IMG/VR virus record: IMGVR_UViG_3300045988_155865
Span: 60,944 to 124,943 of that record
Strand: one strand, 5' to 3'
Source of the DNA: a virus
Length of the DNA stretch: 64,000 nt
Part shown: positions 1,710 through 23,698 of the stretch, in pieces
Layout: each line of letters opens with the position of its first letter
Numbering within the stretch: the first letter of the stretch is position 1
Made by a program: the position numbers and the translations under genes
Notes under the pieces: generated by a model
Databases searched by the model: none
Told to the model about the DNA's origin: nothing
What the model saw: only the letters and a program-made list of their open reading frames with translations

Positions 1710-2168
1710 TTAAAAATGTAAAATATTCTGATTTATGCTTCCTCTAAAAGCCAACTCATCAGTTTTTAGAGCTTCAATAAAAGGACCTTCTACTAGAGCA
1801 TCACATTGAGAATATAATTTTTTTTGCCATTTTTTATTAAAATCTGTTACTAAATGACCTGTCCATATCCAGACATTTTTTTTATATCTTTTTGCATATT
1901 TGCAAAGTTTATACATCTATTTTAAACTCTTATTATCTTGATCAAAAGGCTCTCCACCTAAAATAGAAAATCCATCATATCTTGAATCTCGTAATAACTT
2001 TTTAATTGCTTTTATCTCTTTATTGCCGAACGGCTTACCTGAGCAAAAATCCCAAGCTTCTTTGTTAAAACACCCGGGGCAATGAATTTCGCAACCCGAA
2101 ACGAATAAACTTATTCTTACTCCTGGCCCATTCGCTAAATCAAATTCATAAATTTTTTGATAATTCAT
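1710..2168 (-). CDS. nrdG: anaerobic ribonucleotide reductase activating protein NrdG (radical SAM), one in-frame TAG at 1917-1919
   Basis: ORFs 1917..2168 (CEIHCPGCFN radical-SAM cysteines, GPGVRISLFVSGC) and 1710..1916 (NVWIWTGH) are in the same frame, separated only by TAG. The combined 152 aa aligns gap-free with E. coli NrdG over GGDPL...IWVWTG. Confidence 0.85.
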
Positions 2169-2653
2169 TAAACTTTTAACTCCTTTTGACCATGTTTTAT
2201 TCTATGCTCGACCTCATTTTGTTTTCCTAAATTAAAAGCAGTTTTATAATTACCTGTTAAATAACCAGTAACTCTTCTTAAACGTTCTATCGCATTACTG
2301 CCGCATTTTGGGCAAACATCTTTAATTTCTCCTTGATATCCACATTCTAAACAAGTGTCTGCTGGTACATTAATTGCAAAATATGGTATATCTTTATCCA
2401 TCGCATAATTTACAATACTTTCTAAGCCATCTATATTAAAACGAACTATTGAATCTAATTCTACATAAGTAATACAACCAGCAGAAGAATATCCAGTAAG
2501 TTCACTTTCAATATCAATTTTTTCATATGGGGTCATGTGTTTCCAAACTGGTACATGCATACTATTGGTAAAAAATTCTTTGTCTGATACATTTTCTATA
2601 ATTCCATATTTATCTTGGAATTTTTTCATTGCTGTATAGCATAAATTTTCGGC
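2168..2653 (-). CDS. nrdD: anaerobic ribonucleotide reductase NrdD, exon 2 (C-terminal glycine-radical domain)
   Basis: ORF 2168..2656: TNSMHVPV, Zn ribbon CLECGYQ...CPKCG, glycine radical motif RRVTGYLTG. True exon start approximate; upstream in-frame sequence hits TGA within 9 codons. Confidence 0.8.
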   Translation of the reverse strand, partial: AENLCYTAMKKFQDKYGIIENVSDKEFFTNSMHVPVWKHMTPYEKIDIESELTGYSSAGCITYVELDSIVRFNIDGLESIVNYAMDKDIPYFAINVPADTCLECGYQGEIKDVCPKCGSNAIERLRRVTGYLTGNYKTAFNLGKQNEVEHRIKHGQKELKV

Positions 2654-3623
2654 CATTCGAACCCTCGGTTTCCCGATATTTCAAAAAGGGGATTAGACTA
2701 TATTATCATCTTATTATTCTGTTACCAAATAATAAGAGCTCTGTCTTTCGGATATAAAATCCTACTCTACTCACTTCTTCATTATAAATGTTTCTTTTAT
2801 AACTATGTTTTCGATAGTCGTTAGAGAACAAATCCATTGGTTTTATATTCAGTCAAGTATCTAAACCAATATCCACAACGAGGTTTTGTTTTAACATTAT
2901 GGCTACATTGATTTAATATTATTGTTTTTGTAATGTGTAATTCTCTTGAAGCTTCTCCTACAGAGCCATACATTTTTAATAAATTACCCTGTAAATCAAA
3001 ACTACAAACATGAATTGATTGATTATCATCCCAACTTTTATCATTTTTAGCAAGACCATCTTTATAAGCATCTTTAGTATTTTTTGAATTAGTTCCCCAC
3101 TCAAGATTAGATACTTCAGGGTTTGTCTTATTGTTGTCTTTATGCATCACCACTGCATAATTATTTGGATTAGGCAAAAAAGTTTCTGCAACTAAAATAT
3201 GCACTCTTCTTTGCTTTTGTCCTTCTGGATAAGTTATACTAGAATATAAATATCCATTATTTTTATTTACAAAATTTGCTTTGGGATAAAATAAATCATT
3301 TCCATAATCTTTATAAATATTGCCTTTTGAAGAAATATAATCAGTTTCACTTCCATTGATTAATCGTATTTCTTCATTAATTTGACTTCTTTTAATTAAT
3401 TTATCTGTCATTTTTCTACGCGCCATAAAAAATTCACTCTCCTTTTATATTATATGAATTTTTTTATTATACACGACTGAAAACTTATGTCCAATAAATT
3501 TACCCTACGGGATTAACATGCCTATTATAGGTTTAGTCTCTCTTATCATCTTATTACGATTGCCCGTTTAACAGAGTTGTTTTTTCACATAATCACTTAT
3601 GCGACTCCCAATCCGAAAAGTTT
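2654..3623 (-). mobile_element. group I intron interrupting nrdD, carrying an HNH homing endonuclease ORF (boundaries approximate)
   Basis: nrdD exon 1 (frame ending ...GVYYTP) and exon 2 (AENLCYTA...) are in different frames. They are separated by ~1 kb that contains a free-standing HNH ORF. The join TP|AENLC matches E. coli NrdD YSTPSENLC. Exon 1 ends on U and the proposed intron ends on G, as expected for group I splice sites. Confidence 0.6.
2821..3426 (-). CDS. HNH homing endonuclease (intron-encoded)
   Basis: ORF track; HNH motif HKDNNKTNPEVSNLEWGT; located inside the nrdD intron; RBS AAAGGAGAGTG upstream. Confidence 0.75.
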   Translation of the reverse strand: MARRKMTDKLIKRSQINEEIRLINGSETDYISSKGNIYKDYGNDLFYPKANFVNKNNGYLYSSITYPEGQKQRRVHILVAETFLPNPNNYAVVMHKDNNKTNPEVSNLEWGTNSKNTKDAYKDGLAKNDKSWDDNQSIHVCSFDLQGNLLKMYGSVGEASRELHITKTIILNQCSHNVKTKPRCGYWFRYLTEYKTNGFVL

Positions 3624-5388
3624 AGGAGTATAATAAACTCCAAAATTTAATTTATATCTTTCTTTAAACTCCGCACATTTATCTTTAAATATTTGTTCAA
3701 TTTTTTTAGCAAGTTTCATTCCCTCTGGAGAAGTATGATCTTTTCCAATTAAAATTTGAAGAGTCTCAGCAAGACCTAACTAACCCACTGCGAGAGTTCC
3801 ATGCTTGAGCGCACTTCTAATCCCCTCTTCTGGAACATAACCAGCCATGACTCCATTTTGATACATAAAGCTTGCGGATGCAGGGTCTTGTGCGCAAATC
3901 CACTCAAAACGTTCAATAAGCATGTCTTTTGCTTCATGGATTTTTTCATCCAGAAGTTTCAAGAATTTATCAACAGCTAGACCTTCTAGATCCTCTTCAA
4001 AGGGTTCTGAATCTTTAAGAGCTGATTCCTTTGCTATCATTGCTAATGTAGGCATAATAATAGTTACAGGACAAATATTTCCGCGTCCATCTTTCTGCTG
4101 ACCTAGTCCATTTACATCCCAGCTATTAGCCGTGCGGCATCCCATCGTCGAGAAGTAAGTTGTCGGATCATTTAGATCATAACCTGCATTGCCTGTCCAA
4201 TCTACATTCGCATAATTAGGATATAGACGGGTTGCAGTAGACTTAAGTGCTAACCGGAATAGATCATAATTAGGGTCACCGGGCGCACGATTTACGCCTT
4301 TCATACACTGAAAAATTCCACATGGGAAAATTGAAGTTTTATGTAATTTACCAAGACCTTCAATAGATACTTCAAGAAGTGCTTGTATTATCATTCTTCC
4401 TTCTGGCAGAGTACAAGTACCATAATTGATTGATGTGAAGGGTAATTGATTTCCACTTCTGGATTGGAGTGTATTAAGATTATGGTATAGTCCTTCTACT
4501 GCCTGATGCACTTCTTTTATTGTCATATCCATAGCGTATTTATAAACTTCAGGGAACTTTTCAGAAAAATGTCTGCTATCAATAGAGAATGTTTTTAAAT
4601 ATTCCCAATCTAATTCATCAGCTGCTCTTGCAATATAATGATAACCATCGCGCCAATGCTTTACAAAACTTTTGCGAACATATGGAACCATAGTCCAATC
4701 AAGATGCGTAGCACTTACTCCGCCAAATTGCTGAAGGGATTGAAGCTAAAAAATGACAGCAACTAATTGAAATGCGGTATTAACTGAACCAGCTGGTCGC
4801 ACACTTGTTTGTCTTGTATTAAATCCTTTTGCTAATAAATCATCAAAAGGAATAGATAAACAATTATGACTTCCAACTGCATAAGCAGATAAGTCATGAA
4901 TATAGATTTCATTATTTAAATGATTAGCTTTTGCCATTGGTGTTATTAAATAATCTAAAGCATATTTTTTTGCTACTAAGTCAGAAGCTTCTCCAGCCCT
5001 ACCGCCGAAAGATTTTTCATCAACATTAGCATTTTGATTCTAAACATTACTTGCATTTAATTTTTCAGAAACCATATTCATAAGTTCTTTATAATCATTT
5101 CTTGCGATACCATGTAAATATCTATATCTGATATAAGCTTTTGCTACATCCTTTCGTTCAGCACTCATAAGATAATCTTCAATTCGGTCTTGAATTTCTT
5201 CTACTGATATTGCTCTATTCTACTTTGAAAAATCTTTTTCAATATCATTGGCAATATCTTTAGCAGTATCTGTTTCATATAGCGCACCGTCTATATCTAT
5301 AAAGGCTTTGTTTATAGCATTAATAATTTTATTTTTATCAAATTCTACTATTGAGCCATTTCTTTTTTGTATAAACATATAATATTTA
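3624..5388 (-). CDS. nrdD: anaerobic ribonucleotide reductase NrdD, exon 1 (ATP-cone + catalytic barrel). At least 6 in-frame TAG codons (3780, 4746, 5040, 5220 ...); a 10-nt tandem duplication near codon 16 shifts the frame by +1
   Basis: ORFs 3780..4691 and 4746..4937 plus untracked upstream pieces are all in one frame and interrupted only by TAG. N-terminus MFIQKRNGSIVEFDKN|KIINAINKAF is a canonical ATP cone. After TAG 3780 the reading continues LGLAETLQILIGKDHTSPEGMKLAKKIEQIFKDKCAEFKERYKLNFGVYYTP, matching E. coli NrdD. Confidence 0.8.
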
Positions 5389-5452: not shown

Positions 5453-6013
5453 TTATTGATTATTTATTTTTGCCCAAATATGCGCACAATTAGAGTTTAA
5501 ATCTAATTCAGTTTCATTCTTAAGAATTTCAACTTCTAAATTATAAAAACGATTAATGTGTTCAAATTCCTAAAAATCTTTTTTATCTGCTATATATCTA
5601 CGAGCTATTTCATCTACATTGGGGTTTTCTTCTCTGTTTAACTATCTTAGTAATCTTTCTTTATCATTTGCTTGTATTTCAAAAGCTCCAACTATATCTA
5701 TTTTATTATTAAAGGCTAAAGTAATAAAACCATCAGGATTTATTACAATTACATTTATTTTATCTTTTGACAAAGCTGATATTGGAGTGCCATAATGCCA
5801 ACCATTAAAGCTAACCTCTTCAATTTTCTCTGCTTTCCTAAATTCTTCCTCGGTCATAAAAATGTAATCAATACCATTTACTTCATAGTCACGTTTAGGT
5901 CTTGTGGTAGCAGTTACCACAAGACTAAATCTATTATCAGTTACTATTCGCTAAGCTAAAGTATCTTTTCCACTTCCAGCTTTCCCCAAAATAACTATAA
6001 CTTTAGGTAACAT
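5453..6013 (-). CDS. gmk: guanylate kinase-like dNMP kinase, 3 in-frame TAG codons (5951, 5642, ~5563)
   Basis: P-loop ILGKAGSGKDTLA, then TAG, then RIV...VTATTRPKRDYEVNGIDYIFMTEEEF...NGWHYGT (guanylate kinase signature). ORF track shows only the middle piece 5642..5920. Confidence 0.75.
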
Positions 6014-9000
6014 CTTCTTCCTCCTCTCCTTTAAAACGAGAATTTCTTAATATTAAATCTCCATTAGATTCTATTGAATCTATTTTATATAAAGTATGTC
6101 CTGGAGTTGAGTTATACCTTTTCGCCATAAAAGTATCTCCATTGCGAATGCCTTGCACTACCAGCATACTACCTCGATTAAACCAACTACGCTCCATAAT
6201 TTTTTTACTTCCATCTGGTTGCTTTTGCGAAATTTGTTTATCAAACAGTGCGAAATATTCTTTTCTAAATTTAACTTCAACAACACCTGACGGAGTTAGA
6301 AGTGAGATAGTGGATTTAGTTTTATTTTTTGCGATACAAGTACCACAAATTTTATAAATTTTATATAAATTAATAGTTTTATTACCCTTTTCAAAAGTTC
6401 TATCTACAACAGGTTCTTCCATTAAACTATTAAAATCTACAATACCATATTTTCCTTTATTTACATCTTGGAGTTCATGGTTATGAAAATAGAAACATAA
6501 TACTTCCATTTCCCAAGAGGATAAATTTCCGCAAGCATATTTATCCCAATCTTCTTTAAAAATTTTCTCATTTAATTGATGTAAAATTTCTTGTTGATTA
6601 GTTTTCATCCAATCTCTAAATATGTCCATATATGTTTGATAAATCTTATCCCAATCTTTTGCTTGCATAAATAATTCCGATTGAATCAAATCTTCTTGTC
6701 CAATTTCAATTAAAAATGCTATTGCTCTATCATCAATTTTATATACTTCTTTATTTACTTTGCACATAGTTTTTAGATAACGAGTAAATTCATATATTCT
6801 TTTTGGCATAATAAATTTTTCCTCATCTGGAATTAAATTCCTTTGCATTAAACCATTCATATTTTGAAGAGTTATTCTTTTCTTTTTATCACAAGTATTC
6901 CATATATACCAAGCCATAGCAAATTTGCGATCATGCATATTGTCAAATGCGCCACCTTTAATTAAAGAAATCATAGATTGTCTTTTTACAGAAACTCTAT
7001 CACAAAAATCTTTAATTGATTTATAAGGACGATTCTTTATAATCTCATAAACCACATCATCACCAACATTTAATAAACCCTTTAAGCCAAATAATATCTA
7101 ATTATTTACTACATCAGGTTTGAATCCAAATCCAGAATTATTAATATCTGCTAAAGATACCTTAATTCCAGCAGAGCGAATACTTCCTATAGCTTTTGCT
7201 ACTTTTGCATAATCAGTGGAATCATCTTCTAATAATGCACCACTATTAACAATCAAACAAGCAGTATTCCAATATATTGGATTAAAATGAGTTGCTAAAT
7301 AAAGAGTTTGCATTCCTACAAAAGAATAAGCAAGCGCATGTATTAGAGAAAATGAATATCCAACCTAGGGCCCTATTCCACATTTCCAGACATATTTGCC
7401 GAGATTCTCAGATTTAGCTTGCGTAAGCACTTTTTTATGCAAATCTGGAATTTTATCCATTTGTTTTTTACCAACTATTTTTCTTGCAGTATTTGCTTCT
7501 GCAAGACTAAAACCGCATATATTTTCATCTTGAAGCATCATCATCATTTGCTCTTGACTAGGGGGTACCCCATATGACTGTAAGAAGTATGGCTCTAATA
7601 TCTTTTGTTCTTCAATTGTTAAACCGGCCTCGCGCATTTCTTTATACCATAATTGGATATTATTTTTAAATCTTACGTATTTATCTATTGGATTTTCTCC
7701 ACCTTCTTCACTAGTCATTAATCTCATTAGTCCATTTGCATCGCTCATCTCTAAAGGAGTACGAGGTTTAATTCTTTTTGCTGCTTGTGCGCCAACAGAT
7801 GAATCAAACTGAAAACAATTCACAACACTATTATTTGCAAGAGCATCCCACATTTTTTGATCGTCTCTTGGAAGAACAGAAGGATGTAAATATTTATTAT
7901 AAACTTGCCTTAAAGTTAAATCTTTTTCAATAACATTATCTTCTTGCAATAAATTTATTGTTTGAATGATAATATCTTGAACAGATGTTAATAAGAAGTC
8001 ATATTTTACTGAGCCAGCGGCCTCCTGCATATGAAGGTCCCATTGTGTAACTAAGGCTCCACTTGGAGTTCTCATAATCGCTGCATCATCATAAATATTT
8101 TCATCAAAAAAGATAACTCCAGAAGCATGACTTCCTCTGCGACAGACTAAAGATTCAATACCTTTCATAATCTTTAAAAGACCAGGATATTGTTGTACTG
8201 TATTAATAAATATTTTAGAAGGTTTTCGCCCTTTTTCTTCATTACCTTCTGTTAAATCTTTTAAGCTCCATAAGAATCCTCTTTCTACTGGTACTAAAGA
8301 AGATATATATAACGCTTCATCATTATCAATCCCATTTGGATATTCCTCTGACCTATAGCCTCTACAAGCAGTAAGGATTGTACTCTTTGTACCTTCTGTT
8401 CCAAAAGTACAAACTTGAACTAAACCTAATTCTCCTCTTTCCTCACGGATTGCACTAAATATTTTCTGAAGTCTAGATGGAGCAAGATCAATGTCCACAT
8501 CTCCAAGTTCGGTTCTCTCGTCATTAAGATATCTCCAGAAAGGTAAATTCCACTCTATAGGATCAAGTTGTGTAATGCCAAGAAGATAATGGTTAAGCGC
8601 TGCACAGGCTGAACCTCTTCCAGCACCAACCGTACTTCCGCAGTCCCAAAATAGGTCAATATAGTGCTTTAAAGTATTTGGATAAGCAAACATACAAGTT
8701 TGCAATTTTTCTCCTATAATTCTTTTTACTCTTGCTTCTTCTTCTAATCGAGCAACATAATCTAGATTATCAATCCATAATCCTTTTTTGTCCTCTAAAG
8801 ATTTCCAACATTCATTTATCCAGTATCGCTCTTGAATATTATCTGAAGTAAATAAAGATTTTAAAATAGGATAATTATTCATTTCATCAGCATAATCATT
8901 ATTAACTCCCCACCAAGCATTTTTAGAATAATCAGTTACAGGCACCTCTGGAATACTTTGATGTTTTTCTAAACTATAAAATTCTATTTTGTTTTTTATT

Positions 9001-9872
9001 TCTAAAGTATTGTTTAAAATTATATCAATTTCATTTTCTTCAAAACTTAATAATAATAATTCTCTTACTTCTTGCTCATCCATTAGTCGAGAAAATTCAT
9101 AAAAACTATCGACTTCTCTTTCTCCACCCTTTGAGTTTAAATAAGCTTTATGAATAAATCTATCTTCTTTATCTATATAATGTGTATCAGTCGCTGTAGT
9201 CATTTTTATATCGAATATCTTTGCTATCTCTAATAATTTTTTATTAACTCTTATTTGGTCTTCATTATTAGCTGGAGCGCATTCTATATAAAAATCATCT
9301 TTACCAAAAACATTAGTACAATATTGTAAGAAATGAATAATTTGTTGTTTATAACTATTTGCGGTCTGCATATCTTTTACCTCTTCACATAAAGACATAT
9401 TCAAAGCGCAAGAGGAGAGCTCCCCTCCTAAACAAGCAGTAGTTCCTATAACATGGCCTTTATATCTTTCCAGGACTTCTGCTAGTTCACTCTTTAAAAG
9501 AGGAACTCTTTCCATTCTTCTATCTTCATACATATTATACCAAGCAATAGAGCTTAATTCTTTTAATGCTCGATAACCAATTTTATCTTTTGCAATTAAA
9601 ATAAAATGATAATATTTTTGCCCTTTTTCTCTTGTATCTGTTAAATAAATTTCATTGCCTAAAGCAATTGTAAAATTTGGATTGGTTTCACGAATCTTTT
9701 TTGCATATTGATTCACTATCATATGGCTACATAAAGCTTCATGATCTGTTATAGCAATACCATCCAAACCTTTTTCTATAGCTTTATCTATAAGATATTT
9801 TGGTTTTACTATACAATCAAGTAAACGAAGATTAGAATATTCTGTGTGGTTGTGTCCATTAAAAAATCCCAT
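6003..9872 (-). CDS. dnaE: DNA polymerase III alpha subunit (DnaE-type, N-terminal PHP domain), 2 in-frame TAG codons (7365-7367, 7098-7100)
   Basis: Three ORFs (7365..9872, 7098..7313, 6003..7055) share one frame and are separated only by TAG. Motifs GHNHTEYS (PHP); ...CGIGP[TAG]VGYSFSLIHALAYSFVGMQTLYLATHFNPIYW matches DnaE [29 protein letters not shown]; HhH and OB regions follow. Confidence 0.85.
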
Positions 9873-11534: not shown

Positions 11535-11618
11535 ATTTTATTCTCCTTACTTATAATTTCTTATAATTACTAATTTTTTTGCTGCTCTAGTTGCTGCAGT
11601 ATATAACCAACGTTCATG

Positions 11619-12699
11619 CTATCCACCCCGCAAAAATTCTTCCAGTACTAGAACATTATCATATTCACTACCTTGTGCTTTATGGCAAGTAATTGCATAC
11701 CCATAATCAAATTCTTTGGGTTTCATTGGTTTAGGTACTTTTTTAAAATTATTTTTATTTATAAAAGGCTCTCCTTCTGTAAATATTTTTAAATCCATAT
11801 TTAAGCCCTCAAATTTATCTTCTCCTAAGTTAAAAGTTCCTTTCATCCCAGTTCCTAAGAAAGGATAGTTTGGAATAAATTTTACTTCTGTTAAAGTACC
11901 AACCATTCCATTGATTAAAGGATCTTCCCCAGAATCTGAAATAACATCATAATCATTTCGTAAACAAATTATTTTATCTCCGACTAAAGGAGTAGATTCT
12001 TCTGTGCTAAACAGTTGTTTTCTTCGAAGATGGTTTAAATATTTTCTAGTTATATTTTTTCCACATAAGATTTGATCTGCCCAATCTAACATACCATCAC
12101 ATAAAGCATTTGGGTCGTATATTTGAACTTCGTTCCCTTGATATAAATGCAATGGCTTTTTATCTCTTATATCCATTGTTAAACGTATAATCTCGCTTTC
12201 TTGCGCCTGCCGCATTATTTCATCTAAGAAGATATGTGGATGCTTTAATACGCCATTGTCTTCCCCTATTGGCTCTAATTGCCCAGGGTCTCCTAATGCT
12301 ATTACTGGAATTTTATGACTTAATAGTAGATCCCATAATTCTTTTGGTAACATAGATACTTCATCTACTACAATTAATTTATAAGGATGATCTAATGGTC
12401 TTTTTATTTTATGGAAAAAAGTTCCATCATTTCTTGGATATGATTCATAAAGTAATCTATGTGATGTCATCGCATTAGGGCAACCTTTTTCTTTTAATAT
12501 GAGAGCAGCTTTTCCTGTGTAAGCAATATATGTTACATCTTTTGGATCTAAATTTAAAGCTTGTATAATAAATTTTACAAGTGTTGATTTACCAGTTCCA
12601 GTTTTAAGCGTAGCCAGCAATACATGTCCAAGGTTCATTAGACTTGTATCTGGCTACGGCGATTTTCAAACCTTCTTCTTGTTTATGAGTTAGAATCAA
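11619..12699 (-). CDS. dda: Dda-like SF1B DNA helicase; N-terminal ~20 codons are in a +1 frame relative to the body
   Basis: Body ORF 11619..12638: GTGKSTL Walker A, LIVVDEVSML, GDPGQLEPI. The RBS-proximal TTG-started segment MILTHKQEEGLKIAVARYKSN matches T4 Dda LTEGQKNAFNIVMKAIKEKK but lies in the other frame. Confidence 0.7.
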
Positions 12700-12760
12700 G
12701 TTTTACTTCCTCCTTTCTTTCTTTTAAAAATCTTCTATATTTCATAAATTATCATTTCAA

Positions 12761-13096
12761 TTAAAATAAATTAAAATCTGTGTCTATTTTAAAATAATCA
12801 TCATTAATTGTCAAATCAATTCCACCATAATCCTCAAACAGTCCTAATTCTGCTCTTTTCCCACGTTCTACTTTTGGTTCAAAAAATTCTAAATCGCCCT
12901 TTGAATCCTCGTCTCCGGCCCTATGAGGCTCTGCGATTTTTTTATCCAAAGATATATCTTCTGATATATCACATGTATTAATGTCTACTCCTATGGTTGA
13001 TAATATTTTTAAACTCTCGCTTATTTGTTCTGCACTACGAGTAGTGAATTCAATTAACGCCTTTAAAGCTTCGCCTAAGGCTTCTATACTTCGGTC
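12761..13096 (-). CDS. hypothetical acidic protein
   Basis: ORF 12761..12949 extends upstream in frame (no ATG; TTG/ATA/ATT start); ends shortly before a terminator. Confidence 0.4.
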   Translation of the reverse strand, partial: DRSIEALGEALKALIEFTTRSAEQISESLKILSTIGVDINTCDISEDISLDKKIAEPHRAGDEDSKGDLEFFEPKVERGKRAELGLFEDYGGIDLTINDDYFKIDTDFNLF

Positions 13097-13111
13097 TATA
13101 ATTTACACCCC

Positions 13112-13790: not shown

Positions 13791-15548
13791 TTAAAAATAA
13801 TATTTTTTATTTGAAACTATTTCATAGTCATCTATTAAGATTTGTGGGGTAATGTTACCTCCCCACTCATTTTTTTCACATCTGCCTACTATATTAATAA
13901 CAGTACAGCCATTTCCGAATTCTGGATTTAACTTATCAAATTCTTCTTGTGAGGATTTAAATTTAATGCAACTAATTCCAGAAGGCAATGTTATTTTGAT
14001 AGTAGGACTTTTATCTGGTGACATAAGCGTTAAATTATTAGAAGTAATATTTATATTTTCAAAAGCTATTTTTGGCTCTTCTACTCCTTGTCCCCATAAA
14101 GATTTCAAATTAGCTATTTCAAGAATATCTTTTGCTTGACAATCTCGCATGCCATAAATAAAATCTACCTTATAATTTGGTGAGAACTCAAAATCTTTTA
14201 ATCTATTTTCAACTATTTCAAAAAATAAGTCAAACTTTTCTTCGCTTATACTAAAACCGAATGCATTTGCATGTCCTTGTGCATAGCCGCCATCGTCCTA
14301 GAGACCACAATCATATAGAAACTATTTAAAATCTTGTAACTTTGATTTATCATAACCTCGGCCAGAGCCTTCCCACCAAACCTTATTATCTCTTTCAGTC
14401 TAATTTAATAATAAGACTGGTCTTTTATATCTATCCATTAAAACATTAGCAATTAAACCAGTAAGATTTTTATTACATTTTGCCTCTTTTGGAAGTTGAA
14501 TTACAAGAATTTTATTTTGTAATAAATCATTTTCACGAATAATGGTTTCTGCTATTTCTATACTATTATCTCTTTCTCTTGTTTGTCTATTTTTTATATT
14601 ATTACAATTTCTACAAGCTTGTTCTACTTTGCTTTCTAACTAACCCTTACAGCCACGTTTTGTCGATGGAATTTGTTGATAAGCTTTATATTCAAGCATA
14701 GATTCAAATAAAAGCATTTTTTCATCTAAATCTCCTACTCTAATGGTAGCATTCACGTATGGTGCTATATAAAATGCAATTCCAGTTGGCGTTAATTCAT
14801 TTCCAATAGAAAATGAATTTCTTTGAATCATAGTTCTTATAAAAGGATTTCTAATATTAGCGATGCCTTTCTCTATAATTCTTTTTGTCTCAAAATCTTT
14901 TAAACTCATAACGTCAGCTATGATACCTAAAGCAGCTAAATCTAAAAATTCATCTGCATAATGTACATCCATTATCTAATCTATATAACTACAAAATTTA
15001 TAAACCATACCAGCGCCAGATAAAGACTTTGTAGGATAATTACATAACTGATTATTAATGACACAAGCATATTCACTTATACTTTCAGCTTCATGATGAT
15101 CAATAACTAAAACATCTATACCTTTTTCTTTTAAAATTTTATGTTGTTCATAATCATTACTTGCGCTGTCTGCTGCAATAACAAGACCAACGTCATCTGG
15201 AAGCTCGTCTAAAATAATACCATGCTATTTCCCGGGGTGCATAATATGAGTTATTGAAGTCGCATATTTTGGAAACAAGCGATATAAGTAATTCGTCAAA
15301 ATTGCTGAACTTGTAAAACCATCACAGTCTGGATCTACAATCATAACTGTTTTAGAAAAATTTTGAATATGACTAGTAAGTAATTTAACTCCTGCTTTCA
15401 TATTTTCTATTTGGGTAGGATTTAAAATATCATCATCTGTTGTGTTTAGATAATGCTATATATCAGAAAAATTAAATCCTCTATTTGTTAACACCTATTC
15501 GACCACTGTGTACTATGGGATCCTTGGTGCTATTAATTGATAGTTCAA
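13791..15548 (-). CDS. recJ: ssDNA exonuclease RecJ (DHH, DHHA1, OB), at least 8 in-frame TAG codons
   Basis: ORFs 13791..14150 (RecJ OB domain) and 14640..14972 (DHH region) share a frame. Manual translation of the gaps and upstream gives VDPDCDGFTSS, VLVIDHH, WEGSGRGYDKS, GGYAQGHANAFG interrupted only by TAG. TTG start after AGGAGG. Confidence 0.8.
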
Positions 15549-17178: not shown

Positions 17179-18708
17179 TTATTCAAACGCAGATTCATCA
17201 ACCTTAATTGTTGTATTGTCTATTTCTTTAAATATAAAATCATAACCAGTACAAAATAAAGGTGTTATTCTACAAGTAGATAAATCTGCTTTACACCATA
17301 AATATACTCCTTTATATGAACCTCGTCTATTTTTATAGATTGATATTTTCATATTAGGATATTCAAACCCTCTATTTTTTATGATTGGATCCAATTTAGC
17401 TAAGTCTTCTGGGGAGACTCCTAGTATAATCATACCTAAGTCGATCTTATCAGCGATTGATTTAGCTCCTCTTAATAAATTCTAATCTGGAGTTTCTGCG
17501 TCTACATAACTACCATTTAACTAAGTAGCTGACATAATAAAAATACCTAATTGATTACATATATCTTTTAATTTTATAGACATCATAAATAAGATATTAT
17601 CTTCTCTTAATTTAACTCCACCAGAACGTCTAGTTATTTCTTCTAATATCTTAATACTTGTGTGCATATAGTCCAGAAAAACGTACTTTACGTCTAGGTC
17701 GCGGACACCTTTTTTTATATGATTTTCAACATCTTGCAAAGAAAAATCTGGAAGTTCGTCTATATAAATAGGACTATTAGATAAAATCTCAGCGGCTTTT
17801 AAAACTCGCTCTTTTTCATCTCCCTAATAAGTTCCATTTAAGATATGTTCTTCGTCTACATTAGATAAAAAAGCTAACATCATTGTCTGCACTTCATCTG
17901 CTTTTTGTTCTGTTGAAATAAATAAAGTAGGTTCAGCAGTACCATTATGTATCCAACCAAAATCTTCGTGATAAATCATATTACAACCAATATAACAAGC
18001 ATCAGCTATCATTGATCTAGATTTACCACAGCCAGTTGGTGCTGACCGCAAATAAAACTTAGTTAATCTTGCCCCTCGAGTAACAGTATTAATTAACGGA
18101 CCATATAAAGGAATTCCTACTTCTGGATTTTTTTCTAAGCTATCTATTAAATTAAAAATATTATCTCCAGCCGATGTTATTTCATCAAATTCATTATCAA
18201 CATATCTATATCTAATTTCTTCAATTTTATCCACTACTTTTTGAGCGATAGATGTTAATGAAGCATTATCCAAATTATCTTCCTATAATTGTTTCTTTTT
18301 TGTATCAAGGATATTATCTGGATCATAAATAAAAGTTACATCTATCCCATGACTATCGAATTCTCTTAATAAAGTCATTTTTTTCATACGATTATAATAA
18401 TAATCAAAAGTTGCTGGCATACTTTTTTCAGAAACTTCAAGCAACCATTCCTCACCTTTATATTGCTTATAAATAGCCTACGCCTTTGGACGTGTTGACA
18501 AAAAATCTGATATTGTTTCTAAAGTTATTTCCTTTGCTCCTAATTCATATATCTTATAAATCGCACCAAATACTATTTTATGAAATTCATTACAAAAATC
18601 TTCATCTGTTATAGTATATTTATCAGATAAATCTAATAAACCTACATTGTTAAATACAGAACCAATTACCTACATAATTGCGGTTGTATCTACATATTTA
18701 CTATTCAT
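17179..18708 (-). CDS. dnaB: DnaB-like replicative helicase, about 5 in-frame TAG codons
   Basis: ORFs 17824..18273, 17521..17739 and 17179..17433 are all in one frame; upstream in-frame piece starts MNSKYVDTTAIM after AGGAGG. Walker A RSAPTGCGKS; DnaB N-domain-like region. Confidence 0.75.
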
Positions 18709-21745: not shown

Positions 21746-22420
21746 TTATGATTTTAGAGGCGGCATTCTACCACAACTTTTACTTTCCGGACAACCTCCT
21801 AAAACTTCACATTTAGGTTTAAAATAATTATCAATTATATATTTCCATTCTTCTGAATAATTTCTTAATGCGTTACATACATCATTAAATAATTGTCTAT
21901 ATTCCCAGTATGCTCTATTGCACATACGTTGTCTTGACATATCCATAAGATTGCGTAGATTATGTTTACAAACTATTTTTGTTGCCATTCCAAGAGGTAA
22001 CAATAAAGCACAATCCTCTTTTGGAACTCCTAATAAAGAAAGATTCACTAGTCCATCTTTTATTTTTTGAATAGTTTTTTCATAATCTTTTTTTGCTATT
22101 TCATTATTTGCAATCGAAGGAGGAATGATATAATCGAATGTTTCATAATTTATATATCGAGTGCTAGCTTGTAGTCTTGTTGGTGAACCTCCTATATGAG
22201 TGTACCATTCTCTAATAACTCTAGCTGAATATCCATTTATAGTTAAATAAACATCGGGGAACTCAAATGTTCGTCCATGCTAATCATTTAGACAATTAAT
22301 TCCTCGCTTATAGTTTCGAATAGGATCATCTGTTGGAGCACCCCAACATTCGCCAGCATATTTTCCTATCATAGTAATAGGGTTTTTTGTAGTATCTGAG
22401 TTTATTAATATTGTTCCCAT
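21746..22420 (-). CDS. thyX: flavin-dependent thymidylate synthase ThyX, 1 in-frame TAG
   Basis: ORF 21746..22048 has SRQRMCNRAYWEYRQL. Upstream in frame: MGTILINSD...CLND[TAG]HGRTFEFPDVYLTINGYSARVIREWYTHIGGSPTRLQASTRY, aligning with ThyX GHESPFEH ... RHR...SxRY. 225 codons. Confidence 0.7.
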
Positions 22421-22479
22421 AATTTAATTTCCTCATCTTTATTATACTAAATAAGTTTTGTTTCATGAGGTTTTTCATT

Positions 22480-22704
22480 CTATCTTTCTATATACTCACA
22501 ATTTTCTGGTAATAGTATTATATCTGGAAGTTTTCTAATAATTTGATTTTTAAAATGACTAATACTTACTTCAAACATTGGAGTAGTTATAGTTGATTCA
22601 TACTCATGATACAGTCTGTAATATTTTTTTATAGAATTATAAATTTCAAAAGCTTTTTCTTTTTCATCTTCATCGTATATTATCAATATTACAAGGGGTT
22701 TCAT
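22480..22704 (-). CDS. hypothetical protein
   Basis: ORF track 22480..22752; second Met at 22704 is preceded by GGGAGGG and avoids overlap with GIY-YIG. Confidence 0.4.
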   Translation of the reverse strand: MKPLVILIIYDEDEKEKAFEIYNSIKKYYRLYHEYESTITTPMFEVSISHFKNQIIRKLPDIILLPENCEYIER

Positions 22705-22705
22705 T

Positions 22706-23149
22706 TTAAGACCCTCCCTTAGTTTCATTATATCCAAAATTTTGAGATTCAAAATAGTCTATCCAATAGCATTCTTTTTCATTAAGCTATTCTCTTGGAC
22801 ACTCCTCAATAATTTCATAAGAAAAATTTTCCACCCCGACTTTATTCATAACTGTATAAAGTTTATTGCGCGTTGGTGTTTCTGCTCCTAAACCACGTTT
22901 AATATGTGTACGCAATCTTTCTTTAATATTTACTGATTGTCCGATATAAACTTTTTGATTTTCAAGATTTGTAATTTTATATATTCCGCATACGACTTTT
23001 GACCCTATAAGTCGTCCTACTAAATCTGTAAAAGGCTTTTCATAATAGCTTTTCCAAATAACTTTATTTAATGGTTCTACATTTCTCAAATAAGGAACAA
23101 CTTCACGCAATTTATTAATCTCTCTCAAATCTTCATTGGATAATTGCAA
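22706..23149 (-). CDS. GIY-YIG endonuclease, 1 in-frame TAG at 22787
   Basis: GIYKITNLENQKVYIGQSVNIKERLRTH; after TAG continues LNEKECYWIDYFESQNFGYNETKGGS to a TAA stop. Confidence 0.7.
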
Positions 23150-23698
23150 TGTATAAAAATTGATGTTATCCTATTTTTCTTCTTCTCTTTTTAAGAGGTT
23201 TATAATTGCTGATTGTTTTTCTTTAGCCTATTTTAACTTTTTTGTTATTTGTAACAATTCTTGTTGTTGTTCATTAATTTTATTAGCTCCAGTAGTAATC
23301 ATATCTTCAAGAACAGTTAAATATTCTTGCTTATATTCTTCTTCCGCGTTTTGATATTTTTTACTAAGTTCTTCACTTGCTCTATCAATTTTTTCATTAG
23401 CTAATGCAATTTTTTCATCATATAAAGTTTTTGCAAACTATTCAGCCTGAATTCTCTATTCTTCTATTGAAGTATTTAAAGTATCTTTTTGCGCTTGGAG
23501 GTATATAACTTCTTGATTAAGTTTTTCTCGCTCTCCATTAAGATCTTGTATTCTTTTCTCAAGACTATCATTAATTGATTCTGTTTCTCGATTTTTCTCA
23601 TATATCTCTAATCGAGAAGGTCTAAGAAAATAATAACTAAGTCCTACGCCAATAAGAATACAAAAAATACTAATAATAATAATAAATAAAATATTCAT
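23150..23698 (-). CDS. TM helix + long coiled coil; same frame as and contiguous with GIY-YIG (only TAG codons between), possible fusion
   Basis: ORF 23456..23698 (MNILFIIIISIFCILIGVGL... then coiled coil) ends at TAG 23456. No TAA/TGA occurs before the GIY-YIG stop at 22706. Confidence 0.4.

What the first reader, a model, noticed from the sequence alone, without database searches (positions are those of the whole stretch)
5330..5352. Four genes need a +1 frame correction within their first ~20 codons
nrdD (5330-5352): a 10-nt tandem duplication (GATAAAAAT T GATAAAAAT) breaks the ATP-cone sequence MFIQKRNGSIVEFDKN|KIINAINKAF; the zero frame hits TGA immediately. Metallophosphoesterase (~47190): a 4-nt duplication GACT GACT creates GAC TGA and splits WLITGD|CHGQ. 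Dda-like helicase (~12636): the RBS-proximal MILTHKQEEGLKIAVARYKSN is +1 relative to the Walker-A body. SLH protein (~37760): ATG followed by A8 puts MKK one nt out of frame with IISIICACALIFGSINAFA. All four require +1, never -1. Three sit at or next to a stop codon in the zero frame. Conserved N-terminal residues are encoded on both sides of each shift. The long internal ORFs show no comparable breaks. Candidate explanations: assembly/homopolymer errors, recent inactivating mutations, or programmed +1 frameshifting or transcriptional slippage used as translational regulation.
Basis: seen in the sequence. Interest (0 to 1): 0.65.

Follow-up and report, generated by a model that had tools for sequence, protein, structure and literature searches.

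The report
Tiny stop-led gaps interrupting two phage genes
Two genes of this phage (a helicase and a phosphoesterase) are each broken, inside a catalytic motif, by a 4-7 base insert that starts with a stop codon. The inserts are conserved and under selection. In relatives the helicase insert travels with a selfish homing-endonuclease gene, so the ribosome must skip them, much like a miniature of the phage T4 gene 60 bypass. The other two reported sites are a misreading and a one-base homopolymer difference.

Summary
Only part of the finding holds. All four genes lie on the minus strand.

- **nrdD (5330-5352):** the claimed 10-nt duplication does not exist and the frame is continuous. The gene looked broken because it carries four in-frame TAG codons. 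This phage reads TAG as glutamine.
- **SLH gene:** ATG+A8 is truly out of frame. A 96%-identical relative has A7 and is in frame, so this is an unconserved homopolymer indel or an assembly error.
- **Helicase and metallophosphoesterase:** both breaks are real and not errors.
  - Helicase: GCT|TAAAACT|GGA splits the Walker A motif GYA|GTGKS.
  - Phosphoesterase: GAC|TGAC|TGT splits motif I GD|CHG.
  - Both are present in a diverged relative. The downstream bodies are under strong purifying selection (dN/dS 0.03 and 0.12).

About 25 helicase junction variants occur in 50 other contigs. All sit at the same spot and all begin with TAA or TGA. They are 5, 6, 7 or 8 nt long and end in GCN, ACY or GTN. 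In many of these contigs the gap is the 3' end of a mobile cassette made of an HNH endonuclease gene plus a replacement helicase 5' end. The window keeps only a remnant of that endonuclease gene.

Best reading: these are homing-endonuclease-linked micro coding gaps decoded by a stop-triggered ribosomal hop. This is a new variant of the T4 gene 60/mobA theme. The decoding step is inferred, not shown.

The parts
12607..12699 (-). Helicase 5' segment: TTG start plus 31 codons, LILTHKQEEGLKIAVARYKSNEPWTCIAGYA. It ends in the take-off codon GCT (12609..12607).
   Evidence: The RBS AAAGGAGGAAG lies at 12716..12706. The segment aligns to residues 1-31 of intact Dda/RecD-like helicases. Across cassette lineages pN is 0.17 against pS 0.54.
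12600..12606 (-). Helicase micro coding gap TAAAACT: stop TAA at 12606..12604 and final triplet ACT at 12602..12600.
   Evidence: Intact relatives read GYAGTGKS with nothing between. The closest relative has TAAAGCT. About 25 variants, 5-8 nt long, occur at the same spot.
11547..12599 (-). Helicase body from GGA ACT GGT AAA TCA (GTGKST) to the stop codon. It contains one in-frame TAG.
   Evidence: dN/dS is 0.03 against the relative, from 24 synonymous and 3 nonsynonymous changes. Pfam families AAA_30, AAA_19 and UvrD_C_2 match.
12683..12730 (-). Remnant of the C-terminal end of the cassette's HNH endonuclease gene (FLKERKEEVKLDSNS*), overlapping the helicase RBS and start.
   Evidence: Compare L024 ...LNLKEKEEVKPDGIN*, which is followed by the same AAAGGAGGAAGTAAAAC string. 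A full HNH gene stands at this position in L013, L022, L024, L043, L049 and L069.
47196..47234 (-). Phosphoesterase 5' segment MLSVIKNWLITGD. The start is ATG 47234 or, matching homologues, GTG 47225. It ends in the take-off codon GAC (47198..47196).
   Evidence: Intact relatives read M-I-N-R-W-L-I-T-G-D-[CT]-H-G.
47192..47195 (-). Phosphoesterase micro coding gap TGAC: stop TGA at 47195..47193. The triplet GAC at 47194..47192 repeats the take-off codon.
   Evidence: The gap is identical in the 95% relative L081, which differs at the next codon (TGC for TGT).
46481..47191 (-). Phosphoesterase body from TGT CAT GGT (CHG) to the stop codon.
   Evidence: dN/dS is 0.12, from 19 synonymous and 11 nonsynonymous changes. 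Pfam Metallophos scores 47.1 bits only when the 5' segment is joined.
37756..37766 (-). SLH-protein start ATG followed by A8. One A too many puts the signal peptide (KK)IISIICACALIFGSINAFA out of frame.
   Evidence: The 96% relative L090 has ATG+A7 and is in frame. This is the only indel inside that ORF between the two genomes.
35951..37755 (-). SLH-protein body, open from 37762.
   Evidence: dN/dS is 0.14 against the relative.
5330..5352 (-). nrdD codons 10-17 (the coordinates given in the finding). There is no duplication, no frameshift and no stop here.
3780..5222 (-). The stretch of nrdD holding four in-frame TAG codons (5222..5220, 5042..5040, 4748..4746, 3782..3780), read as sense.

Best explanation
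The four sites are three different things.

(a) nrdD is intact at the reported site. It only looks fragmented because this phage reads TAG as glutamine.

(b) The SLH gene carries a one-base homopolymer difference (A8 against A7 in the nearest relative). This is a recent mutation or an assembly error.

(c) The helicase and the metallophosphoesterase each carry a conserved 'micro coding gap'. Each gap is a few non-coding bases that start with a true stop codon (TAA or TGA) and sit inside a catalytic motif.
- Helicase: 7 nt between GYA and GTGKS of Walker A.
- Phosphoesterase: 4 nt between GD and CHG of motif I.

Shown for the helicase:
- The gap is the 3' end of a mobile cassette. The cassette consists of an HNH homing-endonuclease gene, a ribosome-binding site, a replacement copy of the first 31 helicase codons, and the gap.
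- The cassette has moved between diverged helicase genes.
- In this window the endonuclease gene has been deleted. Its last codons, the replacement 5' end and the gap remain.

Inferred:
- By analogy with T4 mobA/gene 60, the gap disrupts the endonuclease's target in the conserved motif, so the carrier genome is not cut.
- The protein is still made as one chain. A ribosome holding peptidyl-tRNA(Ala or Asp) on the last sense codon meets the stop in its A site. It then slides 4-8 nt and re-pairs the peptidyl-tRNA with the identical or near-cognate triplet at the end of the gap.
- In the window that means GAC to GAC for the phosphoesterase and GCT to ACT for the helicase. Relatives show GCY to GCN, ACY or GTN.
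- Decoding resumes at the next codon and restores the canonical GYAGTGKS and TGDCHG.

The confidence of 0.6 is for the whole statement. That the two gaps are real, selected recoding sites, with the helicase gap endonuclease-linked, is about 0.85. The specific hop mechanism is about 0.5.
For: Real, and not errors or pseudogenes:
- Both gaps are present in the 155.7-kb relative IMGVR_UViG_3300045988_163776, which differs from the window at dS 0.11-0.16.
- Helicase body: 24 synonymous, 3 nonsynonymous changes, dN/dS 0.03. Phosphoesterase body: 19 and 11, dN/dS 0.12.
- The 31 helicase codons upstream of the gap are also under purifying selection across 9 lineages (pS 0.54, pN 0.17). GYA is kept right up to the stop.
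- One gap variant is identical in five separate metagenomes (L049-L053).

One protein, with no alternative start:
- The joined helicase aligns from residue 1 to 376 with phage Dda-like helicases. It aligns without a gap across the junction with PDB 9kwf_B.
- Neither body frame has a start codon with an RBS. No start codon is conserved among the interrupted loci.

Stop-led and frame-independent:
- About 25 junction types in 50 contigs all start with TAA or TGA directly after GCY. Lengths are 5, 6, 7 and 8 nt. The last triplet is always GCN, ACY or GTN.
- TAA and TGA are exchanged between close relatives (L093 and L094).
- L111 (8 nt) and L112 (7 nt) are about 95% identical on both flanks, yet their gaps need different frames.

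Cassette mobility:
- Relative to its 97%-identical intact relative L035, L024 carries a 714-bp insertion exactly at GYA|GTGKS. The insertion holds the HNH gene, the RBS and a new 5' segment. The old 5' segment lies decayed upstream.
- The cassette ORF matches HNH endonuclease phrog_2255 at E 8.5e-26.
- L128 and L130 are 100% identical upstream of the gap, 64% downstream, and share the same gap. L105 and L106 are 96% and 56%.
- L022 and L069 have 92% identical bodies but different cassettes.
- Interrupted genes are scattered among intact ones in the tree.

The canonical product fits best:
- Intact homologues read GYAGTGKS and TGD[CT]HG.
- Helicase Pfam AAA_30 scores: hop product 71.8 bits, +1 product 63.5, internal ATG 60.9.
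- Phosphoesterase Metallophos scores: hop product 47.1 bits, +1 product 40.3, internal ATG no match.

TAG reassignment:
- The window has CAA where the relative has TAG, twice.
- The invariant Q of LTxKQ is encoded by TAG in L002, L017 and L041.
Against: - No protein or ribosome data exist. The decoding step is inference.
- In the window's own helicase the landing triplet is ACT, not an Ala codon. The relative has GCT. Roughly half of the junction types end in ACY or GTN, which are near-cognate only.
- Those triplets encode small residues (Thr, Val, Ala). They could equally be translated, giving GYA-X-GTGKS.
- The L084/L144 phosphoesterase gap is GGT TAGC GAY. Its triplet AGC mismatches GGT. 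Its stop is TAG, in genomes that otherwise read TAG as sense.
- No significant RNA structure flanks the sites (z from -1.5 to +0.6). No nascent-peptide signal could be tested.
- No endonuclease gene or remnant adjoins the phosphoesterase in this window. Its cassette origin rests only on L084, which has a homing-endonuclease-like ORF directly upstream. L086 has that ORF with an intact gene.
- The later pattern scans fixed GGCTACGCY and TRA. Only the 10 variants from the protein-based search are an unbiased sample for those two features.
Confidence: 0.6

Rival explanations
1. Classical programmed frameshifting rather than hopping. At the stop codon the ribosome shifts +1 without moving the P-site tRNA to a new non-overlapping codon. 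That would be Ty3-like (out-of-frame A-site binding) or prfB-like. The products would be GYA-KT-GTGKS and GD-D-CHG. Relatives with 5- or 8-nt gaps would use -1 or +2 shifts, and those with 6-nt gaps would use stop read-through.
For: - Both window sites need exactly +1 and have a stop in the A site.
- AGGAG lies immediately 5' of the phosphoesterase shift codon (ACAGGAGAC TGA), recalling the Shine-Dalgarno stimulator of prfB.
- The last triplet of every gap encodes a small residue (Ala, Thr or Val) that would be tolerated before GTGKS.
- The window's ACT is not cognate for tRNA-Ala.
- In L084/L144 a +1 product, ITG-S-D-x-H, resembles the common SDxH form of motif I.
Against: - GCU-U and GAC-U offer no +1 re-pairing.
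- One homologous site would need three or four different mechanisms for the 5-, 6-, 7- and 8-nt gaps. Close relatives switch between 7 and 8 nt.
- The products would carry 1-3 extra residues inside the P-loop or motif I, which no intact homologue has.
- Profile scores are 7-8 bits lower than for the hop products.
Confidence: 0.2
2. Genes in pieces. The stop codon simply terminates a short N-terminal peptide of 31 or 13 residues. The body is made separately by re-initiation, and the pieces assemble. This is the situation in endonuclease-split nrdA of phage Aeh1 and in T4 gp60/gp39.
For: - A stop codon directly after the 5' segment is the one invariant feature.
- Endonuclease insertions that split genes into two functional ORFs are known (Manning and Atkins, bioRxiv 10.1101/2022.08.31.505936).
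- nrdD in this same window may be such a case.
Against: - No ATG, GTG or TTG and no RBS lies near the junction in the body frame, in the window or consistently among variants.
- The split would fall inside the P-loop and inside DxH, separating a 13-31-residue peptide from the catalytic core.
- The window's only in-frame ATG (12638) is absent in other lineages and gives a poorer domain match.
Confidence: 0.07
3. Dead genes. The gaps are scars of selfish endonuclease cassette invasion that inactivated non-essential genes, and nothing decodes them.
For: - The cassettes are selfish and recently mobile.
- Dda-type helicases are dispensable in T4 (general knowledge).
- The L084/L144 phosphoesterases have lost the Gly of DxHG.
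Against: - Purifying selection has acted on both sides of both gaps since the window and its relative diverged, and both carry the gaps (dN/dS 0.03 and 0.12).
- The 5' segments are conserved across lineages whose synonymous sites are half saturated.
- In contrast, the displaced old 5' segment in L024 has already decayed.
- The 372- and 241-codon bodies contain no stops.
- The stop codon and the final triplet of the gap are themselves conserved.
Confidence: 0.05
4. Sequencing or assembly artefacts.
For: For the SLH site only: an A8 homopolymer, A7 in the nearest relative, and several intergenic homopolymer length differences between the two assemblies.
Against: For the helicase and phosphoesterase:
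- The inserts are 7 nt and 4 nt and are not homopolymers.
- They are identical or near-identical in an independent assembly.
- They recur in 50 contigs from many samples.

For nrdD there is nothing to explain.
Confidence: 0.02

Closest known systems
Phage T4 gene 60 translational bypass within the mobA homing-endonuclease cassette (Bonocora et al. 2011 as cited in, and Manning and Atkins 2022, bioRxiv 10.1101/2022.08.31.505936)
   Same: - A non-coding gap lies inside a conserved enzyme-coding sequence and begins with a stop codon directly after the take-off codon.
- In many variants a matched or near-matched triplet sits at the end of the gap.
- The gap is physically linked to an HNH-type homing endonuclease gene, and the two move together as one cassette.
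- The cassette carries a replacement copy of target-gene sequence.
- The endonuclease is lost in some lineages while the gap persists.
- The cassette has inserted repeatedly and independently at the same site.
   Different: - The gap is 4-8 nt, not 50 nt.
- There is no take-off stem-loop or other significant structure.
- The target genes differ: a Dda/RecD-like helicase P-loop and metallophosphoesterase motif I, not topoisomerase II.
- There is no sequence homology to gene 60.
- The host phages are low-GC, TAG-recoded phages from gut and rumen metagenomes.
- The landing triplet is often only near-cognate.
- Bypassing here is inferred, not demonstrated.
Synthetic 'stop-hops' and hungry-codon bypassing in E. 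coli (Weiss/Atkins/Gesteland; Gallant and Lindsley), as reviewed in Atkins et al. 2016, PMC5009743
   Same: Peptidyl-tRNA detaches when the A site holds a stop or a slow codon, then re-pairs a few nucleotides downstream at a matching codon. Landing can be in any frame.
   Different: Those cases are engineered constructs with low efficiency. The review states that no natural in-frame stop-hops are known. Here the sites are natural, conserved, and located in genes under selection. They include in-frame 6-nt versions such as GCC TAA GTT GGT (L047).
prfB (RF2) +1 programmed frameshift, and Listeria phage PSA +1 frameshifts at CCC UGA
   Same: An in-frame stop codon in the A site triggers the event. 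The window's two sites need a net +1. An SD-like AGGAG precedes the phosphoesterase site.
   Different: There is no slippery P-site codon that re-pairs in the +1 frame. Homologous sites in relatives need +2 or 0. The role here is tolerance of an insertion, not autoregulation or production of a second product.
'Byps' translational bypass elements of Magnusiomyces capitatus mitochondria (Lang et al. 2014, via PMC5009743)
   Same: Many short mobile inserts lie inside protein-coding genes and are skipped by the ribosome. Take-off and landing codons are matched.
   Different: Byps are 27-55 nt, GC-rich and mitochondrial, with no linked endonuclease gene.
Stop-codon reassignment TAG to Gln in phages (genetic code 15; Ivanova 2014 and Borges 2022, from my own knowledge)
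   Same: In-frame TAG codons occur in conserved genes and align with Gln. This explains the apparent fragmentation of nrdD and many other ORFs.
   Different: This does not explain the frame breaks. No suppressor tRNA lies in the window.

Membership tests
T4 gene 60-type programmed translational bypass cassette | Two parts of one ORF separated by a non-coding gap, both parts encoding conserved protein sequence | tested here: met
   Both sides align to intact homologues. Both sides are under purifying selection.
T4 gene 60-type programmed translational bypass cassette | Stop (or hungry) codon immediately 3' of the take-off codon | tested here: met
   GCT TAA and GAC TGA in the window. TAA or TGA follows in all 10 unbiased helicase variants.
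T4 gene 60-type programmed translational bypass cassette | Matched take-off and landing codons | tested here: inconclusive
   Phosphoesterase GAC/GAC is matched. The window helicase GCT/ACT is not, while the relative has GCT/GCT. Among roughly 25 junction types, about half end in GCN and the rest in ACY or GTN.
T4 gene 60-type programmed translational bypass cassette | ~50-nt gap with a take-off stem-loop and an internal SD | tested here: not met
   Gaps are 4-8 nt. Folding z-scores range from -1.5 to +0.6.
T4 gene 60-type programmed translational bypass cassette | Nascent-peptide signal required for take-off | not testable with these tools
   Only 13 or 31 residues precede the sites, and they are the native N-termini.
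T4 gene 60-type programmed translational bypass cassette | Linkage to a homing endonuclease gene as one mobile unit | tested here: met
   Helicase: an HNH gene lies directly upstream in L013, L022, L024, L043, L049, L069 and others. The same cassette and gap occur in different helicase backgrounds. The window keeps only a remnant. The phosphoesterase is not shown to be linked in the window.
T4 gene 60-type programmed translational bypass cassette | Homology to the gene 60/topoisomerase element | tested here: not met
   The target genes are different ones: AAA_30/UvrD_C_2 helicase and Metallophos.
prfB-type +1 programmed ribosomal frameshift | P-site codon that can re-pair in the +1 frame (such as CUU U) | tested here: not met
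   GCU U would give CUU and GAC U would give ACU. Neither re-pairs.
prfB-type +1 programmed ribosomal frameshift | In-frame stop at the shift site and an SD-like stimulator a few nt upstream | tested here: inconclusive
   The stop is present at both sites. AGGAG abuts the phosphoesterase site only, and nothing comparable is seen at the helicase.
prfB-type +1 programmed ribosomal frameshift | Same frame change conserved among homologous sites | tested here: not met
   Gaps of 5, 6, 7 and 8 nt occur at the same helicase position.
TAG-to-Gln recoded phage (code 15) | In-frame TAG codons in conserved genes, aligned with Gln | tested here: met
   In-frame TAG counts: nrdD 4, the 1289-codon ORF 2, ORF 13791..15548 9. 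CAA in the window pairs with TAG in the relative twice. The invariant Q is encoded by TAG in L002, L017 and L041.
TAG-to-Gln recoded phage (code 15) | Phage-encoded suppressor tRNA(CUA) | tested here: not met
   The window holds only tRNA-Leu(TAA). The rest of the genome was not available.
Free-standing HNH homing endonuclease | HNH catalytic motif | tested here: met
   L024 ORF: EFHHLDP...KCILLCSNCHKELH. It matches phrog_2255 at E 8.5e-26. The Pfam HNH_2 match is only weak (E 1.2e-3, below cut-off).
Free-standing HNH homing endonuclease | Cleaves the cassette-free allele and spares its own | not testable with these tools
   Inferred from the insertion position and from the analogy with MobA.
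Transcriptional slippage / phase-variable homopolymer (SLH site) | Out-of-frame homopolymer conserved in relatives | tested here: not met
   The relative has A7 and is in frame.

The most novel reading that the evidence does not exclude
These are natural, selected 'stop-hop' elements, forming a second and much smaller family of homing-endonuclease-borne translational bypass cassettes. A gap of 4-8 nt that begins with a stop codon is planted in a catalytic motif to immunise the carrier against its own endonuclease. Ribosomes skip it in a frame-independent way, and some variants (the 6-nt gaps) are in-frame stop-hops. The elements are widespread in TAG-recoded gut and rumen phages and have spread to at least two different enzyme genes.
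Probability: 0.45. Interest if true: 0.85.

Novelty: new variant of a known kind. Interest (0 to 1): 0.72.

Why it matters
Programmed translational bypassing has essentially two natural examples: T4 gene 60 and the Magnusiomyces mitochondrial byps. The gene 60 cassette has been called unique. Natural in-frame stop-hops are stated to be unknown (PMC5009743).

A family of minimal, 4-8-nt, stop-led gaps would offer three things:
- **A simple natural system.** About 25 natural sequence variants exist, all under selection and tied to a homing endonuclease. They allow direct tests of what makes a ribosome take off and land, for example near-cognate landing, gap length and stop identity.
- **A general strategy.** It would show that 'insert a gap in your own target and let the ribosome skip it' is used by selfish endonucleases more widely than in T4.
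- **An annotation warning.** These genes are called as truncated or split ORFs by standard gene callers. In-frame TAG sense codons in the same genomes add to the problem.

Tried and rejected
- Megablast of two window segments against GenBank phages found no close relative.
- Rfam, at gathering thresholds on the whole window and at permissive thresholds on 2500-3750, found only the tRNA. No group I intron model matches the nrdD interruption.
- RNA folding around both sites and around two relatives' sites gave no significant structure.
- An alternative start at ATG 12638 for the helicase was rejected. It has no RBS, is not conserved in other interrupted lineages, and gives a lower domain score.
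- An alternative start at ATG 46876 for the phosphoesterase was rejected, because it loses the Metallophos match entirely.
- A suspected additional frameshift between ORFs 22706..23698 and 22405..22818 was rejected. They are two normal adjacent genes: the first ends in a GIY-YIG-like domain and the second has its own RBS and ATG.
- A second scan with an alignment, looking for more interrupted phosphoesterases, added only one (L144).
- A genome-contig scan gave five more helicase junctions on ruminant-gut MAG contigs but no host assignment. The other six hits were chance matches.
- Four literature searches found no earlier description of these elements. The library is incomplete, so this is not proof of novelty.
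Full report
**1. Checking the observation**

All four genes lie on the minus strand.

*nrdD (5330-5352).* The description at the finding's own coordinates is wrong.
- The sequence is TTT GAT AAA AAT AAA ATT ATT AAT GCT, and there is no tandem duplication.
- The claimed 19-mer is absent from the window even with two mismatches.
- The ORF from ATG 5378 reads MFIQKRNGSIVEFDKNKIINAINKAF without interruption.
- The protein aligns to a solved NrdD (8p23) from residue 3 to 622 with no gap at this place.
- What does interrupt nrdD is four in-frame TAG codons.

*The other three breaks are real in the sequence*.
- **Helicase.** RBS and TTG at 12699 are followed by 31 codons ending ...CIAGYA. Then comes TAA (12606..12604). 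The body, GTGKSTLV..., is in the +1 frame.
- **Metallophosphoesterase.** The sequence is ...WLITGD (GAC 47198..47196), then TGA, then C, then TGT CAT GGT (CHG) in the +1 frame.
- **SLH protein.** ATG 37766 is followed by A8, and the signal peptide is in the +1 frame.

A scan of every open frame of at least 90 codons for a start codon with an RBS flags only these three genes, apart from one small ORF. A suspected fourth case at 22706/22845 turned out to be two ordinary genes.

**2. A reassigned stop codon explains the 'fragmented' genes**

With TAG read as sense, many adjacent ORFs fuse:
- nrdD, 593 codons with 4 TAG;
- a 1289-codon ORF at 6003..9872 with 2 TAG;
- ORF 13791..15548 with 9 TAG;
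- ORF 17179..18708 with 6 TAG.

TAG stands for glutamine. The window has CAA where its close relative has TAG, twice. The invariant Gln of the helicase LTxKQ motif is encoded by TAG in three relatives. No suppressor tRNA lies in the window, which holds only tRNA-Leu(TAA).

**3. The SLH site is a homopolymer difference**

The only relative found is a 155.7-kb IMG/VR contig with 96% protein identity. It has ATG + A7 and reads MKKIISIICACAL... in frame.
- This is the only indel inside the ORF between the two genomes. Intergenic homopolymers differ in several places.
- The ORF is under purifying selection (dN/dS 0.14).
- The site is therefore a recent one-base expansion or an assembly error. It is not a conserved recoding site. 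Only read pile-ups can tell which.

**4. The helicase and phosphoesterase breaks are conserved and selected**

The same relative carries both breaks: GCT TAAAGCT GGA in the helicase and GAC TGAC TGC in the phosphoesterase. Since the two genomes diverged:
- the helicase body accumulated 24 synonymous and 3 nonsynonymous changes (dN/dS 0.03);
- the phosphoesterase body accumulated 19 and 11 (dN/dS 0.12).

Neither gene is a pseudogene, and neither break is an error.

Intact relatives read ...CIAGYAGTGKST... and ...WLITGD[CT]HG.... So the window carries 7 extra bases (TAAAACT) inside Walker A and 4 extra bases (TGAC) inside motif I of the metallophosphoesterase fold.

The joined helicase aligns from residue 1 with phage Dda/RecD-like helicases. 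It aligns across the junction without a gap with PDB 9kwf_B.

**5. The helicase gap is a widespread, variable, stop-led element**

- Among the 80 best helicase loci from IMG/VR, 15 loci are interrupted at exactly this position, giving 10 distinct variants. The others are intact.
- A pattern scan found 45 viral contigs, and a further scan found 5 MAG contigs from ruminant guts.
- Together these give about 25 junction types. All begin with TAA or TGA directly after the Ala codon GCY. They are 5, 6, 7 or 8 nt long. All end in GCN, ACY or GTN.
- TAA and TGA are exchanged between close relatives (L093/L094).
- L111 (TAAATGCA) and L112 (TAAGGTA) are about 95% identical on both flanks, yet need different frames.
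- One variant is identical in five metagenomes (L049-L053).
- The 31 upstream codons are under purifying selection across nine lineages (pS 0.54, pN 0.17). GYA is retained up to the stop.
- Caveat: the two pattern scans fixed GGCTACGCY and TRA. Only the first ten variants are unbiased for those features.

**6. The gap belongs to a mobile homing-endonuclease cassette**

Interrupted genes are scattered through the helicase tree next to intact ones.

*The L024 insertion.* L024 differs from its 97%-identical intact relative L035 by a 714-bp insertion exactly at GYA|GTGKS. The insertion contains:
- an HNH endonuclease gene with in-frame TAGs (phrog_2255, E 8.5e-26);
- the RBS string AAAGGAGGAAGTAAAAC;
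- a new copy of the first 31 helicase codons;
- TGAAA.

The displaced original 5' segment lies upstream of the HNH gene and has already lost a base.

*Distribution and mobility.*
- The same HNH gene precedes the helicase in L013, L022, L043, L049, L069 and many of L091-L135.
- L128 and L130 are 100% identical upstream of the gap, 64% downstream, and share the same gap. L105 and L106 are 96% and 56%.
- L022 and L069 have 92% identical bodies but different cassettes and gaps.
- So the gap travels with the cassette, and the cassette moves between helicase genes.

*The window.* It has no HNH gene. It keeps the same RBS string and a remnant of the HNH C-terminus (FLKERKEEVKLDSNS*, 12730..12683). 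The endonuclease gene has been lost and the gap retained, as also described for gene 60 elements.

**7. The phosphoesterase gap**

Fewer relatives exist for this gene.
- Two diverged phages, L084 and L144, share a different 4-nt insert one codon upstream (GGT TAGC GAY).
- L084 has a homing-endonuclease-like ORF directly upstream (phrog_374/9084). That ORF belongs to the same family as two ORFs in this window (49763..50680 on the plus strand and 42888..43814 on the minus strand).
- L086 has that ORF with an intact phosphoesterase.
- In the window no endonuclease gene adjoins the phosphoesterase.
- The cassette origin of this gap is therefore an inference by analogy.

**8. Mechanism**

Shown: two parts of each gene, in different frames, are both under selection. 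They are separated by a short insert that starts with a stop. There is no start codon for the second part.

Inferred: the ribosome joins the two parts. A short hop explains all variants with a single mechanism. Peptidyl-tRNA leaves the take-off codon when the A site holds the stop. It then re-pairs with the triplet at the end of the gap, 4-8 nt downstream.

A hop is consistent with these points:
- It is indifferent to frame.
- It accounts for the invariant stop.
- It accounts for the restriction of the final triplet to the Ala codon or its single-transition neighbours.
- It accounts for the exact GAC...GAC repeat in the phosphoesterase.
- It restores the canonical motifs. Those products score 7-8 bits better against Pfam than the +1 products.

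Against a hop:
- The window's own helicase landing triplet is ACT.
- ACY and GTN triplets could instead be translated as small residues.
- The L084/L144 gap fits poorly.
- No stimulatory RNA structure is detectable.

The main rival is classical +1 frameshifting at the stop, with -1 or +2 shifts and read-through in relatives. It cannot be excluded without protein data. Split-gene and dead-gene readings are unlikely, for the reasons given under the rival explanations.

The immunity role of the gap, meaning disruption of the endonuclease's target, rests on the analogy with T4 MobA.

**9. Comparison with what is known, and novelty**

The architecture parallels the T4 mobA/gene 60 cassette in four ways:
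- an endonuclease gene together with replacement target sequence;
- a stop-led coding gap;
- repeated insertions at one site;
- loss of the endonuclease with retention of the gap.

It differs in gap size (4-8 nt against 50 nt), in the lack of a stem-loop, in the target genes, and in the phage group.

The 2016 recoding review notes that natural bypassing is rare and that no natural in-frame stop-hops are known. Manning and Atkins call the gene 60 cassette unique. Four literature searches found no description of these elements.

I rate this as a new variant of a known kind. The decoding mechanism is still to be demonstrated.

**10. Verdict**

The finding as written is only partly right.
- One of its four sites, the one at its own coordinates, does not exist.
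- One is an unconserved homopolymer indel.
- The two remaining sites led to something more interesting than proposed: conserved, endonuclease-associated micro coding gaps that very probably require ribosomal bypassing.

Noticed in passing
window, whole; for example 3780..5222, 6003..9872, 13791..15548, 17179..18708 (minus strand): TAG is a sense codon (Gln) in this phage. In-frame TAGs are very unevenly spread. Many long ORFs have none (26005..28362, 50709..53186, 53823..56633, 35951..37762, 37951..39429). Others have 4-9, and the endonuclease-like ORFs 49763..50680 and 42888..43814 have 9 and 5. No suppressor tRNA lies in the window.
   Followed up: partly
window 2168..3600 (minus strand): nrdD is interrupted after ...GVYYTP (followed by KLFGLGVA and TAA at 3599..3597) by about 940 nt that contain an HNH_3 endonuclease ORF (2821..3426). 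It resumes at 2656 with its own RBS and ATG (M-AENLCYTAMKKF...). Joining YYTP|AENLCY gives a continuous alignment to solved NrdD. No Rfam intron model matches. This is either an unrecognised intron or an endonuclease-split gene in pieces.
   Followed up: partly
window 49763..50680 (+) and 42888..43814 (-): Two paralogous homing-endonuclease-like ORFs have three N-terminal GxxxGxLxV...WxCxCDCGN...SCGC repeats and a C-terminal nuclease domain (phrog_374/559/9084, and a weak Pfam DUF2726 match). The same family sits directly upstream of the interrupted phosphoesterase in L084.
   Followed up: partly
window 12761..13102 (minus strand): An acidic ORF of about 110 codons lies just upstream of the helicase and has no ATG, GTG or TTG start. 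It follows a terminator-like hairpin and a G7 run, so ATT or ATA after GGGGGGG-TGTAA may serve as the start. The relative has G5 at the run and a 24-nt tandem duplication near the 3' end.
   Followed up: no
window 22706..23698 (minus strand): An ORF with an N-terminal membrane anchor and a long coiled-coil-like region ends in a GIY-YIG-like motif (VCGIYKITN...VYIGQS...). This is an unusual fusion for that nuclease domain, and it was judged by eye only.
   Followed up: no
L047, L097, L117, L125, L132 (helicase junctions): Five lineages have a 6-nt gap (TAAGTT, TAAGCT, TGAGTT, TAAACT, TGAACT). This is an in-frame TAA or TGA inside Walker A. It would need either stop read-through or an in-frame stop-hop, which the 2016 review says is not known in nature.
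   Followed up: partly
L024 2200..2322; L013 1877..2074: Displaced original helicase 5' segments persist upstream of the inserted HNH gene. They are fused to unrelated sequence and are decaying (a 1-nt deletion in L024). In L024 the 4 nt GCAG flank both ends of the insertion.
   Followed up: partly
All interrupted helicase loci from the protein-based search: The three codons before the gap are always GGC TAC GCY. Synonymous sites elsewhere in the 31-codon segment are about half saturated, and intact genes use many synonymous codons at these positions. This could reflect descent of the cassette or a nucleotide-level requirement of the take-off context.
   Followed up: no
GenBank KT895374.1 (Bacillus phage vB_BpuM-BpSp) 49560..51075: The homologous helicase matches in two pieces spread over about 1.5 kb that are annotated as two hypothetical proteins. 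This may be another interrupted copy of this gene.
   Followed up: no
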